A DNA stretch of 23,805 nucleotides from IMG/VR virus record IMGVR_UViG_2619619130_000001, one strand, 5' to 3'. The position numbers and the translations under genes were made by a program. Shown one piece after another: positions 1 through 9,803 of this stretch; position 1 is the stretch's first letter, and each line of letters begins with the position of its first letter. Under the pieces are notes generated by a model that had not been told where the DNA came from, searched no databases, and was given only the letters and a program-made list of their open reading frames with translations. Source of the stretch: a virus (Duplodnaviria; Heunggongvirae; Uroviricota; Caudoviricetes).

Positions 1-49
1 CCGGAGCGGGACTTGAACCCGCACAGCGCGAACGCCGAGGGATTTTAAA
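1..49 (-). other. att core: 3' segment of a tRNA-Leu(UAA)-like gene (anticodon loop to acceptor stem, truncated by window edge); partial copy, not an intact tRNA
   Basis: Reverse complement of 1-49 reads TTTAAAATCCC / long variable arm / GCGGG-TTCAAGT-CCCGC T-arm / acceptor 3' strand, as I recall for enterobacterial tRNA-Leu(UAA). The sequence at 50+ does not continue into a D-arm/5' half. A tyrosine integrase gene lies immediately adjacent. Confidence 0.6.
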
Positions 50-128: not shown

Positions 129-171
129 TCTATTGTCACTTTTTATCGCCACTTTTTACCCTCTATTGTCA
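129..171. repeat. Direct repeats TCTATTGTCA (129-138, 162-171) and CACTTTTTA(T/C) (137-146, 150-159); candidate integrase arm-type sites
   Basis: Short direct repeats read off the sequence next to the att core; they overlap the 3' end of int. Confidence 0.3.
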
Positions 172-1157
172 AAAGGGTTCAATTCAACTGCAGCCTCTAA
201 ATGACCTGGAGCAAAATGCGCATAACGCATAGTCATTTTTATATCGCTATGCCCCAGTATTTTTTGCAACACAAGAATATTTCCTCCCCGCATCATAAAA
301 TGACTGGCAAACGTGTGACGTAGCACATGAGTTAATTGCCCATCAGGAAGCTCGATCTTCGCTCTCTTAATTGCAGCGTCAAAAGCCTCATAACATGGTG
401 AAAATAACGCTCCTCGTTTTTTAGGAAGCATAGCCTGCAATTGAGGTGAAATCGGTACAGTGCGGTTCTTCTTTCCTTTAGTTTTAACAAATGTGATTCG
501 ACCGGGCAGCACTTGAGATTGCTTTAATCCTTCAGCTTCACTCCACCGAGCACCAGTCGCAAGCCCAATACGGACAACAACCCCCAAATCTTTATTCCGT
601 GACTCATCACACGCAATCAGAAGGCGTTCAATCTCATCTACATACAGAAACGCCAATTCCTTTTCTTCCTCACGAAACTTGCGAATGCCAGTCAGGGGGT
701 TTTCACCAGACCACTCCCCAAGGCGCTTCAGTTCGGCAAAAACAGCATGTAGATATGACTGCTCGCGATTAACGGTTGCTTCACTAAGTTTTTTCTTCCC
801 CTTGGGATTCCATTCTCCTGATAACCTCCTTTCCCGATAAGTAGCAAACATATTTTTGTCAAACTGAGAAGCAAATGGATCTCCCAGCCTGGAACAAATA
901 GACTCAAGTTTGACTTTGCGCTCTGCACCAGAGGACAAGGTTTTACCGTACATCTCAAACCAACGAGCAACCAACTCAGAAAGACGAGGACCAGAACCAT
1001 CTTGAAACTCGTCTCCAACTCTACTATTCATTAAACGGCGCTCATAAGAGAGCGCCTCACTTTTTGTCGCAAACTGTTTACGAATACGTTTTCCCGATGC
1101 CCCGTAAGGATAACATTCGCAAAGCCATTTACCTGATGGAATCTTACGAACCGACAT
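156..1157 (-). CDS. int: Tyrosine site-specific recombinase (phage integrase)
   Basis: 333-aa ORF with C-terminal catalytic signature HVLRHTFASHFMMRGG...LGHSDIKMTMRYAHF (R..H-x-x-R..Y); sits next to the tRNA-derived att core. Confidence 0.9.
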   Translation of the reverse strand: MSVRKIPSGKWLCECYPYGASGKRIRKQFATKSEALSYERRLMNSRVGDEFQDGSGPRLSELVARWFEMYGKTLSSGAERKVKLESICSRLGDPFASQFDKNMFATYRERRLSGEWNPKGKKKLSEATVNREQSYLHAVFAELKRLGEWSGENPLTGIRKFREEEKELAFLYVDEIERLLIACDESRNKDLGVVVRIGLATGARWSEAEGLKQSQVLPGRITFVKTKGKKNRTVPISPQLQAMLPKKRGALFSPCYEAFDAAIKRAKIELPDGQLTHVLRHTFASHFMMRGGNILVLQKILGHSDIKMTMRYAHFAPGHLEAAVELNPFDNRG

Positions 1158-1162
1158 TTTAG

Positions 1163-1510
1163 TTACTTATCACATAAATCAAATGCAGCCTTAGTGACAT
1201 CTCCCAGATTCTTTTTTAACCCTGGGGCGGCATCATTATCCAGCCAAAATGGATTATTGTTATCTAACGGTAACGCACCAAATGTTTTACCTTTTATTCG
1301 AGCCAAACCTGTAAGCGCATATAACTTATTATCGTCAAAATTCATCACATAAGGATTACCATCTAGACACTGTAACTGAACCTCATCAGTATTAAATGGC
1401 CATACCCCATTGAAACTCTCACGTTCAATATTTTTAAAAGGCATTGCGACGGCAGAAAAAGAAAACATAGATAAAAAAGTAACTAATAGTTGAACATTTT
1501 TTACTTTCAT
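1163..1510 (-). CDS. Small secreted protein (predicted signal peptide, two Cys), function unknown; cargo/moron
   Basis: 115 aa; N-terminus MKVKNVQLLVTFLSMFSFSAVA looks like a Sec signal peptide; AT-rich coding DNA unlike the phage core; same strand as int and repressor. Confidence 0.6.
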   Translation of the reverse strand: MKVKNVQLLVTFLSMFSFSAVAMPFKNIERESFNGVWPFNTDEVQLQCLDGNPYVMNFDDNKLYALTGLARIKGKTFGALPLDNNNPFWLDNDAAPGLKKNLGDVTKAAFDLCDK

Positions 1511-1539: not shown

Positions 1540-2190
1540 TTACAAATTAAAAAACATCCTAGAAATGGCACCACCTACCACCCCCCCTACGCAGATAAAG
1601 AATATTATTTCTTTTGGATAAAGTCGGATTAATTCTGAAGCACGAAGTCGGACTTCTGGTAAGGTCGAATTCTCTGTGTTGCTTGATACCGATTGTTGCT
1701 CTAACCACGACAATGCAGACTGCAACTGAGAACGAGTAAGATCGTTTAAACGTCCTGTACCGAAATTGATATGGCAATACCGCAGAAGTTTTTGTCGAAG
1801 TCCACAGTCTTCACTGTTACGTAGTAATAAACTTACAAGAGCCTTACAGGCATCATGATCTTTACATCGCTCAAGCATTGCATGCAGAAAACTCTCCGCT
1901 GTTTTATATTGATTTACTGTCATATCATCAATACCAGCTACACCAATCTCCGCATGTACTTTTTGCCAAATAATAAACGCTTCAGTATTGCTAGCTTCTG
2001 CAATAGCAGCAACCAAGCTATTTAGCTCCTTACGCTGAGCCTTAAGCAAAGGGCGATCGTCATCATCATTATTCGAAGGGATTGCGATATTGACGGTATG
2101 AGAACCATCATATCGCCCTATCTGAATATTCTTTTCGTGAAAATCACGCCCAGCAACGCGATTGTTTGAACCGTTTGAGTTGACGGCCAT
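1540..2190 (-). CDS. Tail-anchored membrane protein (single C-terminal TM helix), function unknown; cargo/moron
   Basis: 216 aa; acidic DDDD linker; hydrophobic C-terminus IIFFICVGGVVGGAISRMFF; AT-rich; its N-terminus repeats a motif from the repressor C-terminus. Confidence 0.6.
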   Translation of the reverse strand: MAVNSNGSNNRVAGRDFHEKNIQIGRYDGSHTVNIAIPSNNDDDDRPLLKAQRKELNSLVAAIAEASNTEAFIIWQKVHAEIGVAGIDDMTVNQYKTAESFLHAMLERCKDHDACKALVSLLLRNSEDCGLRQKLLRYCHINFGTGRLNDLTRSQLQSALSWLEQQSVSSNTENSTLPEVRLRASELIRLYPKEIIFFICVGGVVGGAISRMFFNL

Positions 2191-2205
2191 GTCACCTCCC
2201 TACTA

Positions 2206-2610
2206 TCACCTACCCTTAGTTTCGTTATAGTCACGCCCAGCGATACGGTTATTACCGCCAGAAATATTTAACTCACGTCCTGATGGCTGAGTTTCCTTTT
2301 CACTGGCCGCACCTTTTAAAGCCCCGATCACCGCGTTTTTCACATCTAACGAAGCTGCTCGAAAGCGAGTAATCAACTCCTGCTCATCATCGTTATAAGT
2401 TTCAGGTGAGTGAATTCCCAACACAACATACTGAACATCAAGGCCAAAACGAGACAGCGCTGCCAAATACGCAGCATCAGGAAAGCTATCTCCTTTCTCA
2501 TATCTAAGCTGAGTTAGCTTTTTGACTCCACCAATGTCGCTCATAGCAACTTGACTAAGTCCCAATCTTTCCCTTTCCTCACGCAACCTCTGACCAATAT
2601 CATTTTTCAT
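2206..2610 (-). CDS. HTH (XRE/CI-type) immunity repressor
   Basis: 134 aa; helix-turn-helix LGLSQVAMSDIGGVKKLTQLRYEKG; divergent from the rightward early operon; position equivalent to P2 C / 186 cI next to int. Confidence 0.7.
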   Translation of the reverse strand: MKNDIGQRLREERERLGLSQVAMSDIGGVKKLTQLRYEKGDSFPDAAYLAALSRFGLDVQYVVLGIHSPETYNDDEQELITRFRAASLDVKNAVIGALKGAASEKETQPSGRELNISGGNNRIAGRDYNETKGR

Positions 2611-2685: not shown

Positions 2686-2892
2686 ATGAAACAAGTTCTT
2701 CACGATACCAGATCACGCATTCCGCGTAACACCGCCACAGGTCCAAGACTGGCACTTCGGCTGTCCCTCGAGGAGCGAGCCGTCATTGATGAAATGGCAG
2801 CTAAAGAACAACGCTCATCCTCTAACATGGCGCGCATGATCTTCCTTCGCGGCCTAGAGCTAACCCAGAAAGAACAAAACAAATCTTCCTGA
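2686..2892 (+). CDS. Small early regulator (Cro/Cox-position protein)
   Basis: 68 aa, first gene of the rightward operon divergent from the repressor; basic, likely DNA-binding. Confidence 0.5.
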   Translation: MKQVLHDTRSRIPRNTATGPRLALRLSLEERAVIDEMAAKEQRSSSNMARMIFLRGLELTQKEQNKSS

Positions 2893-2908
2893 TCAGGAGG
2901 CTAATGGG

Positions 2909-3112
2909 ATGTCAGGTATAACCATCAATATCAATGTGAATGCCCCCTATGTATCCCTGCAGAAATATGCAGAGATAACAGGTATCCCTCTTAATACATG
3001 CAAAAAGATGTTGGCTGACGGTCGAATTATTATCCGACCCAAACGCGCCAAAATGGAAAAGCCTGAAGTAAACCTTGTGGCGATGTTAAAAGACGCTTTG
3101 GCTAACAGCTAA
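2909..3112 (+). CDS. Small HTH protein, possible excisionase/Cox-Apl-like regulator
   Basis: 67 aa; AGGAGG 8 nt upstream of ATG; HTH-like segment YVSLQKYAEITGIPLNTCKKMLADGRI. Confidence 0.5.
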   Translation: MSGITININVNAPYVSLQKYAEITGIPLNTCKKMLADGRIIIRPKRAKMEKPEVNLVAMLKDALANS

Positions 3113-8080: not shown

Positions 8081-9040
8081 ATGAAAATTTGTATCGACGA
8101 CGGCTCCACCAATATCAAGCTGGCATGGACTGAGAACGGCGAACGCCGCAACGCTATCAGCCCGAACAGCTTCAAGTCGGAATGGTCTGCGCCGTTCGGT
8201 GGCACGCAGCCCGCGAACTACATGCTTGATGGCGTGCGCTATGGTTTTGATCCGGTCAGCGATCGCTTTGTCCAGACGACCGACACGCAATACCAGTACA
8301 GCGATGTGAATGTCATTGCCATTCATCACGCGCTGGTCAAATCAGGCATCACACCACAGGAGGTGGATGTGGTTGTCACCCTGCCACTGAGCGAGTATTT
8401 CGACACAAACGCACAGCCGGACATGGCCAACATCAACCGCAAAAAAGCGAACGTTATGCGCCCGGTGGAGTACCAGAACGGCAAAGCATTCACTATCCGT
8501 AACGTACGGGTTATGCCTGAATCTATTCCGGCTGGCTTTAAAGCACTGGCTGACATGAGTCCGTTTGAATCCCTGCTGATTGTGGATTTAGGCGGAACCA
8601 CGCTGGATGTAGCAAAGGTTCAGGGACAACTGGCAGGTATCAGCCAGGTGTTTTGCGATCCACACGTAGGCGTTTCCCTGATGGCCGATGCAGTACTGTC
8701 GGTGATGGCCACTAACGGTATGCGTACCAGTCACCACATCGCCAATACCATTATCGAACATCGCCATGATGAAGCCTGGCTGCGCCAGCACATCCATAAT
8801 GACGCGCATTACGCCAGCCTGATGGCGGTTATTCGTGAAAAGGAAGAAACACTGAAACAACGCGTGATCCGCGCGCTGGCGGGTTTTTCGGGTTACGGGC
8901 GGGTGATGGTTGTCGGTGGCGGGGCGGAGATTGTGGCACCCGCTATCCGCGAAGCCTGCGGAGTTAATGCGACTTTCATCGCGGACGGGGGGCCACAGTT
9001 TGCTCTGGTTAATGGGCTGTACGCAATGGACAAGGAGTAA
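8081..9040 (+). CDS. parM: ParM/StbA-family actin-like segregation ATPase
   Basis: 319 aa; N-terminal CIDDGSTNIKLAW, SDVNVIAIHHAL, VMPESIPAG, LIVDLGGTTLDV and VMVVGGGAE motifs align along the length with plasmid R1 ParM as I remember it. Confidence 0.85.
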   Translation: MKICIDDGSTNIKLAWTENGERRNAISPNSFKSEWSAPFGGTQPANYMLDGVRYGFDPVSDRFVQTTDTQYQYSDVNVIAIHHALVKSGITPQEVDVVVTLPLSEYFDTNAQPDMANINRKKANVMRPVEYQNGKAFTIRNVRVMPESIPAGFKALADMSPFESLLIVDLGGTTLDVAKVQGQLAGISQVFCDPHVGVSLMADAVLSVMATNGMRTSHHIANTIIEHRHDEAWLRQHIHNDAHYASLMAVIREKEETLKQRVIRALAGFSGYGRVMVVGGGAEIVAPAIREACGVNATFIADGGPQFALVNGLYAMDKE

Positions 9041-9419: not shown

Positions 9420-9803
9420 ATGAGCGAAATCAACTATCAGGCATTACGTGAACGTTATTCACCTGTGCCAGTACCGAAATGCCCTATTTGCGGCGAGGAA
9501 ATGTCAATTCAGCGAATATCTGGAGCACAGGTTGTTTATGCCTGCTCCGGTTATGGTGATGATGGAGATTTCAAAATTGGTCGAACTCTTGCCGACGAAC
9601 ATTATGAAAAATCACGCGTAACAGTGTTGGATGTCGGGGATCCTGAAGTATTGGCGCTACTTGATTGGCTGGAAACCAAAGACAACCGAATCGCTGAACT
9701 GGAAAAAATCGCCACTGACTATGCACTTAAATTCCAGAAAGCACAGGACGCATTAAAGTACGCCGCTTTGCTGCATAGCAGGACAGCGCAGCTACAAGAC
9801 TAA
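9420..9803 (+). CDS. Hypothetical protein with CxxC zinc-ribbon-like motif and C-terminal coiled coil
   Basis: 127 aa; KCPICGEE...YACSG then heptad-like LDWLETKDNRIAELEKIATDYALKFQKAQDALKYAA; AAGGAG RBS; within the variable locus. Confidence 0.6.
   Translation: MSEINYQALRERYSPVPVPKCPICGEEMSIQRISGAQVVYACSGYGDDGDFKIGRTLADEHYEKSRVTVLDVGDPEVLALLDWLETKDNRIAELEKIATDYALKFQKAQDALKYAALLHSRTAQLQD

What the first reader, a model, noticed from the sequence alone, without database searches (positions are those of the whole stretch)
2140..2262. Motif duplicated between the repressor C-terminus and the N-terminus of the adjacent membrane protein
The repressor ends ...SGGNNRIAGRDYNETKGR and the next gene begins MAVNSNGSNNRVAGRDFHEK. 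The underlying DNA shares an 11-nt identical core TCACGCCCAGC (2143-2153 and 2231-2241) plus similar flanks. This looks like a scar of the insertion or recombination that brought the cargo in, or a shared functional motif such as an interaction or processing site.
Basis: seen in the sequence. Interest (0 to 1): 0.45.

Follow-up and report, generated by a model that had tools for sequence, protein, structure and literature searches.

The report
Repressor tail matches membrane partner's head
The last ~20 residues of this prophage's repressor and the first ~20 residues of the membrane protein encoded next to it carry the same short motif, and the pairing is conserved and co-evolving across P2-like and Mu-like prophages, so it probably links the lysogeny switch physically to the cell membrane.

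Summary
The HTH repressor (2206-2610, minus strand) ends ..GGNNRIAGRDYNETKGR. The next gene (1540-2190, minus strand) begins MAVNSNGSNNRVAGRDFHEK.

It is not an insertion scar. Synonymous codons differ, and the pair recurs in every related locus examined, in P2-like and Mu-like prophages including BcepMu gp17/gp18.

Where the repressor tail changes to another motif class, the partner's N-terminus changes with it. Cognate pairs score 51 against 34 for non-cognate pairs (permutation p<5e-5).

The partner is a tail-anchored Flk_N-domain membrane protein. In other phages the same N-terminal motif sits on other membrane proteins, and sometimes on two downstream genes.

AlphaFold models both motif regions as disordered. 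Both are proline-free and rich in G and N.

Best reading: a homotypic beta-type interaction motif that couples the immunity repressor to a co-transcribed membrane protein. The gene architecture matches amyloid-signalling motif pairs (BASS; Bab/Agp) but sits on new domains. Binding and functional outcome are inferred, not shown. I found no publication describing it.

The parts
2206..2610 (-). Prophage immunity-type repressor, 134 aa: XRE helix-turn-helix (res 5-64), two helices (74-106), disordered tail (108-134)
   Evidence: ORF. A family profile matches the P22 C2 repressor DNA-binding domain at E=7e-7. PHROG transcriptional regulator/repressor families match. The gene faces the Arc-like and Cox-like early genes. 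AF2 model m1ffb7c35bf83 has pLDDT 78.7 overall and below 50 for residues 108-134.
2209..2268 (-). Repressor C-terminal motif, last 20 residues NISGGNNRIAGRDYNETKGR
   Evidence: Homologous tails ..[IV]N[VI][ST]G.GNR[VI]AGRD[FY]NENKK occur in most repressor homologues and in all 13 genome loci.
2191..2205 (-). 15-nt spacer. After the TGA stop come two further in-frame stops (TAG TAG) and a GGGAGG ribosome-binding site just upstream of the ATG. No terminator, so co-transcription is likely.
   Evidence: Sequence read. No terminator-like site lies between the genes.
1540..2190 (-). Tail-anchored membrane protein, 216 aa (Flk_N family, PHROG 5825)
   Evidence: phrog_5825 at E=6e-101. Homologues carry precomputed PF27202, named Flk_N. 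NCBIfam Flk partial match at 59 bits over residues 36-169. AF2 model m28203fa4fc50.
2077..2190 (-). N-terminal motif region, res 1-38 (MAVNSNGSNNRVAGRDFHEKNIQIGRYDGSHTVNIAIP). The part shared with the repressor is res 3-20 (2131-2184).
   Evidence: Invariant S5 G7 N10 R11 D16 E19 I24 in 18 diverse homologues. In the 119 motif-carrying homologues, residues 1-36 lack proline in 118, and all 119 have a proline in residues 37-50. AF2 pLDDT is below 50 for residues 1-42.
1672..2058 (-). Cytoplasmic all-helical Flk_N-like domain, res 45-173
   Evidence: AF2 helices 50-173 with pLDDT about 85-90. No significant structural neighbour in the PDB; best E=0.62.
1546..1641 (-). C-terminal transmembrane anchor, res 184-215
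   Evidence: AF2 helices 184-190 and 192-215, with the hydrophobic sequence EIIFFICVGGVVGGAISRMFF. A conserved hydrophobic C-terminus is seen in homologues.
2133..2166 (+). DNA repeat copy 1, which encodes the membrane-protein motif on the minus strand
2220..2253 (+). DNA repeat copy 2, which encodes the repressor tail motif on the minus strand; 76% identical to copy 1
1163..1510 (-). Variable downstream cargo gene of the same leftward operon: DUF2511 secreted protein. Not part of the motif pair.
   Evidence: Pfam DUF2511. This position holds different genes in related loci.
156..1157 (-). P2-type tyrosine integrase, at the end of the leftward lysogenic operon
   Evidence: Pfam Int_N and Phage_integrase.
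2686..3112 (+). Divergent early genes (Arc-like 2686-2892, Cox-like 2909-3112) that define the switch region
   Evidence: phrog_3431 and phrog_575. A promoter-like site lies at 2620-2648 on the plus strand.

Best explanation
The duplicated motif is a conserved pair of matching terminal peptides. One is the C-terminal tail of the prophage immunity repressor. The other is the N-terminal region of the membrane protein encoded immediately downstream in the same leftward (lysogenic) operon.

Both peptides look disordered on their own. They are rich in G and N, free of proline, and exposed at a chain end. They most likely bind each other directly through homotypic beta-strand (rung-on-rung, cross-beta-like) pairing.

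That pairing would tether or co-assemble part of the repressor pool with a protein held at the cytoplasmic face of the inner membrane. It would couple the lysis-lysogeny switch to a membrane-located partner, acting as sequestration, buffering, or an anti-repressor-type input.

Shown here: the motif, its conservation, its terminal placement, its co-variation, and the operon arrangement. Inferred: direct binding, the beta-type geometry, and the regulatory outcome.
For: 1. Conservation. The N-terminal motif NS.G..NR..GRD[FY].E is found in 119 of 120 homologues. It includes invariant residues in 18 sequences that are only 57-72% identical overall.

2. Constant pairing. All 13 genome loci (Rosenbergiella, Mixta, Izhakiella, Enterobacter, Erwinia, Kosakonia, Hafnia, Arsenophonus, Serratia and others) have an upstream HTH gene ending in the motif and the membrane gene starting with it. 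By my count, about 41 of 52 distinct IMG/VR repressor loci with a motif tail have a downstream gene with the matching N-terminus. The gaps are mostly -3 to +35 nt.

3. Co-variation.
- Pectobacterium Mu-like: PQIFNGDISGQFAGNQIINN / RQEFNGTAQGQFSSRDIINI.
- Gilliamella: EGQIAGGNIYTT / AEQIAGRDIYNI.
- P. aeruginosa: GQQFNGPVGTVTSGDVVNH / NQQFHDRVHQVAAGDIKNF.
- Further classes appear.
- Over 32 non-redundant pairs, cognate pairs score 51.1 and non-cognate pairs 33.8 (p<5e-5).
- Over the 13 pairs outside the AGRD class, the scores are 44.2 and 25.8 (p<5e-5).

4. Protein-level selection. Synonymous codons are not shared.

5. Modularity.
- P2-like repressors whose HTH domains are only 30-40% identical keep C-terminal regions that are 70-86% identical.
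- The partner's middle domain can be Flk_N, a Zn-ribbon plus TM, a coiled-coil plus TM plus periplasmic tail, or a 2-TM protein, while the N-terminal motif stays.

6. Terminal placement. Of 38 exact DNA matches to V-A-G-R-D-I-[IV]-N in IMG/VR, 10 lie at repressor C-termini and 20 near ORF N-termini.

7. Disorder in the monomer. AF2 gives pLDDT below 50 for both motif regions, which flank confident folded domains.

8. Several motif classes occur within one host genus: Pectobacterium P0157/P0172 versus P0169/P0171, and three classes in Gilliamella. No third gene is conserved across the P2-like and Mu-like contexts. Both points argue against a common host or phage third party.
Against: - No interaction was measured or modelled. 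Only monomer AF2 runs were possible, and they give no structure for either motif.
- Within the dominant AGRD class, co-variation is weak: 55.9 versus 53.5, p=0.02.
- The pairs are phylogenetically related, so the permutation p-values overstate independence.
- Eleven of about 52 motif-tailed repressors have no matching partner within 2.5-3.5 kb. The tail must therefore also work alone, for example in repressor self-association.
- The motif is fairly charged (R, D, E, K), which is less typical of cross-beta cores.
- The functional outcome (sequestration, buffering or induction) has no direct evidence.
Confidence: 0.6

Rival explanations
1. Scar of the insertion or recombination event that brought the membrane-protein and DUF2511 cargo in between the repressor and the integrase. 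On this reading the repeat is a recent DNA duplication at a junction and has no function.
For: A 34-nt direct repeat at 76% identity flanks the gene boundary. The gene after the membrane protein does vary between loci.
Against: Identical residues share a codon in only 4 of 9 cases in the window and 43 of 107 cases summed over the window and nine other loci. Both copies are conserved in 13 of 13 genome loci, and the N-terminal copy in 119 of 120 homologues. The pairing also occurs in Mu-like phages with a different genome layout and different motif classes.
Confidence: 0.02
2. Both termini are recognition sites for one third factor, such as a protease or adaptor (by my recollection, ClpXP acts on the C-terminal tail of the Mu repressor), a chaperone, or a phage antirepressor. 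On this reading the membrane protein is a co-substrate or decoy, and the two peptides never touch each other.
For: Both motifs are exposed, disordered chain ends, as degrons and short linear motifs are. Repressor tails end in a basic cluster such as KK, KGRK or RRRKTK. Orphan tails without a partner exist.
Against: Several motif classes occur in the same host genus, so a host factor would have to read them all. No third gene is conserved across the P2-like and Mu-like modules. Co-variation of the two peptides is explained more simply by direct pairing.
Confidence: 0.17
3. Toxin-antitoxin-like or abortive-infection logic. The HTH protein's tail neutralises a harmful membrane protein. Loss of repressor (induction, or plasmid-like loss) or a phage trigger frees the membrane protein to damage the membrane. 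This also needs direct binding, but gives the opposite direction of control.
For: The layout of an XRE-HTH gene followed by a small membrane-protein gene resembles type II TA and Abi operons. The repressor gives weak hits to MqsA, HipB and RmrA HTH regions. Some loci add a 2-TM protein with the same motif. In known amyloid-signalling pairs the effector attacks membranes (bioRxiv 10.1101/2024.11.07.622273).
Against: The partner has no match to any known toxin or defence family. The HTH gene sits at the immunity-repressor position of P2-like and Mu-like phages. The partner is a single-pass tail-anchored protein with a large soluble helical domain, not an obvious pore former.
Confidence: 0.12
4. 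Chance similarity or low-complexity coincidence.
For: The region is rich in G, N and S.
Against: The 11-mer count is 2 against an expected 0.02. The pairing recurs in dozens of loci and co-varies.
Confidence: 0.01

Closest known systems
Amyloid signalling motif pairs: fungal HET-S/NWD2, bacterial BASS1-10 Bell/NLR pairs (bioRxiv 10.1101/2020.01.06.895854), and E. coli Bab/Agp BASS11 (bioRxiv 10.1101/2024.11.07.622273)
   Same: A motif of about 20 aa is shared by the C-terminus of one protein and the N-terminus of the product of the adjacent collinear gene. Intergenic gaps are tiny or overlapping. Many motif classes each match within their own pair. The motifs sit on varied domains, are rich in G, N and Q, and are sometimes repeated on one side. 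Bab/Agp also lies in a prophage sequence (a defence island) in E. coli.
   Different: The carriers here are a DNA-binding phage repressor and tail-anchored or other membrane proteins, not a Bell/HeLo effector and an NLR-type or TPR sensor. The motif is more charged. Fibril formation, prion-like behaviour and templating are untested. The biological setting is the lysogeny switch, not a dedicated defence island.
Flk (flagella biosynthesis regulator; NCBIfam NF007987; Pfam PF27202 Flk_N)
   Same: It shares the Flk_N helical domain and a single C-terminal membrane anchor facing the cytoplasm.
   Different: True Flk proteins are 330-490 aa, start MQP.SGPG.., and lack the motif. The window protein scores 59 bits against a cut-off of 353. 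It is phage-borne and paired with a repressor.
BcepMu gp17 (repressor) and gp18 (membrane protein), NC_005882
   Same: It is the same module in a sequenced, published Mu-like phage. The tail is ..RQEQVFHGSVGQAVKVEG..GKGKKRK and the partner begins MTNDANGKQEFNKPVGQAIQAGE..SVAGRDIVN.
   Different: The motif class differs. The partner has a coiled-coil, a TM segment and a periplasmic Cys-containing tail instead of a plain Flk_N tail-anchor. The record annotates the two genes only as regulator and membrane protein.
Repressor inactivation by sequestration (antirepressors such as Qtip of Vibrio phage VP882, Tum of 186, Ant of P22) and membrane sequestration of regulators (Mlc-PtsG, PspA-PspBC). These are from general knowledge and were not tested here.
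   Same: The principle is the same: a small phage-encoded or membrane protein controls a repressor by binding or aggregating it rather than cleaving it.
   Different: Those systems do not use a motif copied between the two partners. The partner here is co-transcribed with the repressor in the lysogenic operon, not made from a lytic or induced promoter.

Membership tests
Amyloid signalling motif (ASM/BASS) gene pair | A motif of at least 15 aa common to the C-terminus of one protein and the N-terminus of the product of an adjacent collinear gene | tested here: met
   Seen in the window and in dozens of loci.
Amyloid signalling motif (ASM/BASS) gene pair | [quoted passage not shown] | tested here: met
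   32 non-redundant pairs; cognate 51.1 versus non-cognate 33.8, p<5e-5.
Amyloid signalling motif (ASM/BASS) gene pair | Very short intergenic distance or overlap, consistent with an operon | tested here: met
   15 nt in the window. Mostly -3 to +35 nt elsewhere. No terminator between the genes.
Amyloid signalling motif (ASM/BASS) gene pair | Carried by an NLR-type (NACHT/NB-ARC) or comparable sensor and a Bell/HeLo-type membrane-targeting effector | tested here: not met
   The carriers are an XRE-HTH repressor and a Flk_N tail-anchored protein, with no NLR or Bell hits.
Amyloid signalling motif (ASM/BASS) gene pair | The motif is predicted to adopt a beta or amyloid fold | tested here: inconclusive
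   Monomer AF2 gives pLDDT below 50 and no secondary structure for both motifs.
Amyloid signalling motif (ASM/BASS) gene pair | The motif forms fibrils or prion-like foci, and one side templates the other | not testable with these tools
   This needs peptide ThT, Congo-red and EM assays, and GFP-foci assays.
Flk / Flk_N domain proteins | Flk_N domain (PF27202) | tested here: met
   Precomputed PF27202 on the homologues and on partners in other loci. The NCBIfam Flk profile aligns to residues 36-169. The model is absent from the local Pfam copy.
Flk / Flk_N domain proteins | Full-length Flk equivalog (at least 353 bits, about 330 aa, no N-terminal G/N motif) | tested here: not met
   59.2 bits against a cut-off of 353. 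Flk-type cluster representatives start MQP.SGPG and lack the motif.
Phage immunity repressor of the XRE/CI type | XRE helix-turn-helix DNA-binding domain | tested here: met
   The family profile hits P22 C2 at E=7e-7. Pfam HTH_31 scores 23.3 bits, just under its cut-off of 27.
Phage immunity repressor of the XRE/CI type | Located at the switch, divergent from the early lytic genes and at the head of the lysogenic operon | tested here: met
   It faces the Arc-like and Cox-like genes and is followed by int. In Mu-like loci it faces Ner-like and transposase genes.
Phage immunity repressor of the XRE/CI type | LexA-like S24 self-cleavage domain (the SOS-inducible subclass) | tested here: not met
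   The protein is 134 aa with no Peptidase_S24 hit. After the HTH the model shows only two helices and a disordered tail.
Recent DNA duplication or insertion scar | Nucleotide identity beyond what the shared amino acids require, and absence from relatives | tested here: not met
   The same codon is used for 4 of 9 identical residues in the window and 43 of 107 summed over the window and nine other loci. Both copies are present in all relatives.
Type II toxin-antitoxin or known defence system | The partner belongs to a known toxin or defence family | tested here: not met
   The membrane protein has no PADLOC hit. Its only Pfam matches are two below-cut-off hits, to ELYS and zf-P11.

The most novel reading that the evidence does not exclude
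The motif pair is a true amyloid or prion-like signalling device wired into a phage lysis-lysogeny switch. The membrane-anchored partner has a longer, multi-unit N-terminal region and acts as a sensor or nucleator at the inner membrane. On an envelope or infection cue it templates the single-unit repressor tail into a cross-beta assembly. That would inactivate, or conversely stabilise, the repressor and so control induction or immunity in phages that lack a LexA-type cleavable repressor. This would extend amyloid signalling from NLR/Bell cell-death pairs to transcriptional control in P2-like and Mu-like phages.
Probability: 0.22. Interest if true: 0.9.

Novelty: new variant of a known kind. 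Interest (0 to 1): 0.68.

Why it matters
By my recollection, P2 itself is not inducible by DNA damage, and how repressors of this kind sense the cell's state is poorly understood. The repressor here has no LexA-type self-cleavage domain.

A conserved, co-evolving peptide match between the immunity repressor and a co-transcribed membrane protein points to a physical link between the lysogeny switch and the inner membrane. The module is present in about 10% of complete E. coli genomes (521 of 5426) and in published phages such as BcepMu.

It also offers a simple, testable case of the "matching termini in adjacent genes" architecture outside NLR/Bell cell-death systems. Tests could use peptides of about 20 residues, motif swaps between natural classes, and an easy read-out (immunity or induction).

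If the motif proves amyloid-like, it would be, as far as I could find, the first case of such signalling acting on a transcription factor.

Tried and rejected
- **Motif-only database search.** A doubled-motif profile found only 4 short ORFs with the motif at their N-terminus. This gave no information on other architectures.
- **Structural neighbours of the membrane protein model in the PDB.** Nothing significant. The best hit was the SaPI2 Stl regulator at E=0.62 over 71 columns.
- **Sequence profile against the PDB for the membrane protein.** Nothing below E=0.15.
- **Pfam and PADLOC on the partner proteins.** Only sub-threshold hits: ORF6C at E=0.004 on a 211-aa partner, and Zn_ribbon on the L067 partner. 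A weak PHROG "Ant anti-repressor" hit (E=0.004) is only a hint.
- **Literature.** No paper was found that links Flk_N proteins, P2-like or Mu-like repressor tails, or the peptide strings to each other. The library covers open-access papers only.
- **Read-through or fusion of the two genes.** They are in the same frame, but TGA TAG TAG separates them. Frame relations differ in other loci (coordinates). Rejected.
- **RNA structure from the repeat.** These are direct repeats, and only weak inverted repeats lie nearby. Not pursued.
- **Phage collection search with the membrane protein.** Only Escherichia phage 520873 matched, so no characterised P2-like model phage carries it.
Full report
**Setting**

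The window is the left end and most of a P2-like prophage.
- Bases 1-45 look like the 3' part of a tRNA gene on the minus strand. ARAGORN calls nothing because the gene is cut off.
- A leftward operon follows: HTH repressor 2206-2610, membrane protein 1540-2190, DUF2511 secreted protein 1163-1510, integrase 156-1157.
- Facing it are Arc-like and Cox-like early genes, then a 940-aa gene annotated as replication endonuclease in RefSeq, and portal, terminase and tail genes.
- The 1.6-kb region around the finding is present in 521 of 5426 complete E. coli genomes. It is annotated only as "helix-turn-helix domain-containing protein" and "membrane/hypothetical protein".

**Observation**

- The 11-mer TCACGCCCAGC occurs twice, at 2144-2154 and 2231-2241. 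Shuffles expect 0.02 matches.
- It extends to a 34-nt direct repeat at 76% identity.
- On the coding (minus) strand the shared core is GCT GGG CGT GA, which encodes A-G-R-D.

**Not a scar**

- Residues that are identical in the two copies use the same codon in only 4 of 9 cases in the window. Summed over the window and nine other loci the figure is 43 of 107. The likeness is held at protein level.
- Of 120 homologues of the membrane protein (56-99% identity; Escherichia, Klebsiella, Serratia, Erwinia, Enterobacter and others), 119 start with NS.G..NR..GRD[FY].E.
- The invariant residues in 18 diverse sequences include S5, G7, N10, R11, D16, E19 and I24.
- All 13 loci recovered from one-genome-per-species contigs have an HTH gene ending ..SG.GNR[VI]AGRD[FY]NENKK directly upstream of a membrane-protein gene that starts with the motif.

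**The module is wider than P2-like phages, and the two ends co-vary**

Homologues of the repressor share an HTH domain, a helix YR.APLAVKAAALAALTAG, and then a tail of 25-35 aa ending in a basic cluster. The tail falls into different sequence classes. Looking up the genes that encode variant tails showed Mu-like prophages, with an rve transposase, DUF3102 and a Ner-like gene. In each, the next gene starts with the same variant as the tail.

| Locus | Repressor tail | Partner N-terminus |
|---|---|---|
| Pectobacterium | PQIFNGDISGQFAGNQIINN | RQEFNGTAQGQFSSRDIINI |
| Gilliamella | EGQIAGGNIYTT | AEQIAGRDIYNI |
| P. aeruginosa | GQQFNGPVGTVTSGDVVNH | NQQFHDRVHQVAAGDIKNF |
| Metagenomic L022 | NQTFHGSVGQSVAGSITN | SQDFHGEVGQAAGGDINN |
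| L023 | KQVFHGAVSGGVAARDIINN | MQEFQGNVDGGVAGRDIVNQ |
| L024 | INVSAPHGNAAGRDMV | VNVEAPEGQAAGRDVR |

A scan of IMG/VR with a repressor alignment gave 80 loci.
- By my count, about 41 of 52 distinct motif-tailed repressors have a matching N-terminus on a co-directional gene within 2.5 kb downstream. This is usually the very next gene, with a gap of -3 to +35 nt.
- Eleven have none.
- The two repressors without a motif tail have no partner.

Permutation test on 32 non-redundant pairs:

| Set | Cognate score | Non-cognate score | p |
|---|---|---|---|
| All 32 pairs | 51.1 | 33.8 | <5e-5 |
| 13 pairs outside the AGRD class | 44.2 | 25.8 | <5e-5 |
| Within the nearly invariant AGRD class | 55.9 | 53.5 | 0.02 |

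These p-values ignore shared ancestry. Even so, two different proteins resembling each other class by class needs either selection for matching or repeated copying. The codon data argue against recent copying.

**Modularity**

- Among P2-like loci the HTH domains are only 30-40% identical. They presumably define different immunity specificities. The C-terminal 50 residues are 70-86% identical. The tail therefore travels with the partner gene, not with the DNA-binding domain.
- The partner's body varies. It can be an Flk_N domain plus a TM anchor (most cases), a Zn-ribbon plus TM (L067), a coiled-coil plus TM plus a short periplasmic Cys-containing tail (L023, L026, L088, BcepMu gp18), or a 151-aa protein (L059).
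- In three loci, three consecutive genes carry the motif: the repressor tail, a 211-285-aa protein, and a small 2-TM membrane protein.
- An exact DNA pattern for V-A-G-R-D-I-[IV]-N in IMG/VR hit 38 places. Ten are at repressor C-termini, 20 are near ORF N-termini, and 8 are elsewhere.
- A full HMMER scan of 1.84 billion cluster representatives with the membrane-protein profile found 130 clusters. Of the 115 that are at least 150 aa long, 24 are Flk-type (330-490 aa, MQP.SGPG.., no motif). At least 64 of the other 91 start with a G/N/Q-rich motif of this kind by a regex count, and more by eye.
- The published phage BcepMu carries the pair as gp17 and gp18.

**Structure**

- AF2 models the repressor as an HTH domain (res 5-64) plus helices (74-106), followed by a tail (108-134) with pLDDT below 50.
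- AF2 models the membrane protein as a disordered N-terminus (1-42, pLDDT below 50), a confident helical domain (50-173), a linker, and a C-terminal helix 184-215 that is hydrophobic.
- The helical domain has no significant PDB neighbour.
- In the 119 motif-carrying homologues, residues 1-36 lack proline in 118, and all 119 have a proline in residues 37-50.
- Partner N-terminal regions often contain a second or third degenerate unit. Examples are IGRDFVNI in Yersinia-type proteins, VQAGRDV in Hafnia, and several units in BcepMu gp18. The repressor tail has one unit.

**Mechanism**

The facts are these. The two peptides are exposed and disordered. They are strongly conserved and sit at opposite chain ends of proteins made from one operon. 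They match each other class by class and ride on interchangeable domains. Direct homotypic pairing explains this best (confidence about 0.6).

Because the partner is anchored in the inner membrane with its bulk in the cytoplasm, pairing would place repressor at the membrane or in a mixed assembly. I infer, but have not shown, that this modulates the free repressor pool through titration, sequestration or an anti-repressor-type input. The existence of partners with periplasmic extensions suggests signal input from the envelope.

Rivals:
- A shared third-party recognition site, for example a protease, by analogy with my recollection that ClpXP acts on the Mu repressor's tail. This is disfavoured because several motif classes occur in one host genus and no third gene is conserved.
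- A TA- or Abi-like arrangement in which the tail restrains a harmful membrane protein.
- The scar reading, which is refuted.
- Chance, which is refuted.

**Comparison with known systems**

The gene architecture meets the operational criteria used to find amyloid signalling motifs (10.1101/2020.01.06.895854, section 7). The motif is shared between a C-terminus and the N-terminus of an adjacent collinear gene product, it recurs in many pairs, and the gaps are tiny. An E. coli example with proven amyloid behaviour exists in a prophage sequence (Bab/Agp, 10.1101/2024.11.07.622273).

The carrier domains differ completely, and amyloid formation is untested. I therefore describe it as working like an ASM pair and do not file it as a BASS family member.

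The partner belongs to the Flk_N domain family but is not Flk. The repressor is an XRE-type immunity repressor without an S24 cleavage domain.

**Novelty and limits**

I found no description of this pairing in the searchable literature, which covers open-access papers only. I rate it a new variant of a known kind, namely matching-termini motif pairs. If amyloid-type templating onto a transcription factor were shown, it would be a larger step.

No binding, localisation or phenotype was or could be tested here.

Noticed in passing
window 8081-9040 (+), 9420-9803 (+): The prophage carries a full ParM/StbA actin-like segregation protein (StbA_N at E=4e-82, ParM C-terminal domain at E=3e-68) and an Ead/Ea22-like protein. 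They lie in the variable region between the replication gene and the portal gene. This is unusual cargo for an integrated P2-like prophage. There are no PADLOC hits there.
   Followed up: partly
L111 1357-2885 (-), L134 3093-4771 (-), L137 369-2421 (+): Three consecutive genes carry the same motif: the repressor tail, the N-terminus of a 211-285-aa protein, and the N-terminus of a small 2-TM membrane protein (..GGVAGRDIINEASQMLWDCET..). The motif therefore links a small network of proteins, not just a pair.
   Followed up: partly
L107 2501-3696 (BcepMu NC_005882, gp17/gp18): The published Burkholderia phage BcepMu has the same repressor-tail and membrane-protein-N-terminus match, in a different motif class. 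It is annotated only as regulator and membrane protein.
   Followed up: yes
L063, L083, L087, L096, L098-L102, L104, L106: These are orphan repressors. They have a clear G/N/Q-type tail but no gene with a matching N-terminus within about 2.5-3.5 kb, so the tail must also have a partner-independent role such as self-association.
   Followed up: partly
L010 3605-4631 (Candidatus Symbiopectobacterium): In this decaying endosymbiont genome the partner gene is split by a frameshift, and the repressor tail has lost the RD of the core (NRVAGNNFHENKK). The integrase gene is also broken. This is an anecdote of the two ends decaying together.
   Followed up: no
repressor tails; window 2209-2220: Almost every repressor tail ends in a short basic cluster right after the motif (KK, KGRK, NKKNK, RRRKTK, GKKKK; the window has TKGR). 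Its role is unexplained. Possibilities are lipid or DNA contact, or a degron.
   Followed up: no
window 2133-2253: The two repeat copies are 87 nt apart, a multiple of 3, and the two genes are in the same frame. They are separated by three consecutive stops (TGA TAG TAG). Recombination between the repeats would make an in-frame repressor-membrane protein fusion. The frame relation is not kept in other loci, so it is probably incidental.
   Followed up: partly
L002, L003, L004, L010, L013 repressors: The repressors are mosaic. The HTH domains are 30-40% identical but the C-terminal 50 residues are 70-86% identical. This implies recombination between the DNA-binding domain and the tail, with the tail staying linked to the partner gene.
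   Followed up: yes
window 1-47: The window starts inside what looks like the 3' end of a tRNA gene on the minus strand (the reverse complement of ccggagcgggacttgaacccgc...). This is the likely attachment site next to the integrase. ARAGORN reports nothing because the gene is truncated.
   Followed up: no
window 1540-2190; L111 gene 1858-2493: There are weak, sub-threshold similarities of the partner bodies to antirepressor-associated families: phrog_245 Ant at E=0.004, and Pfam ORF6C at E=0.004. This hints that Flk_N-type domains may be related to antirepressor C-terminal domains.
   Followed up: no
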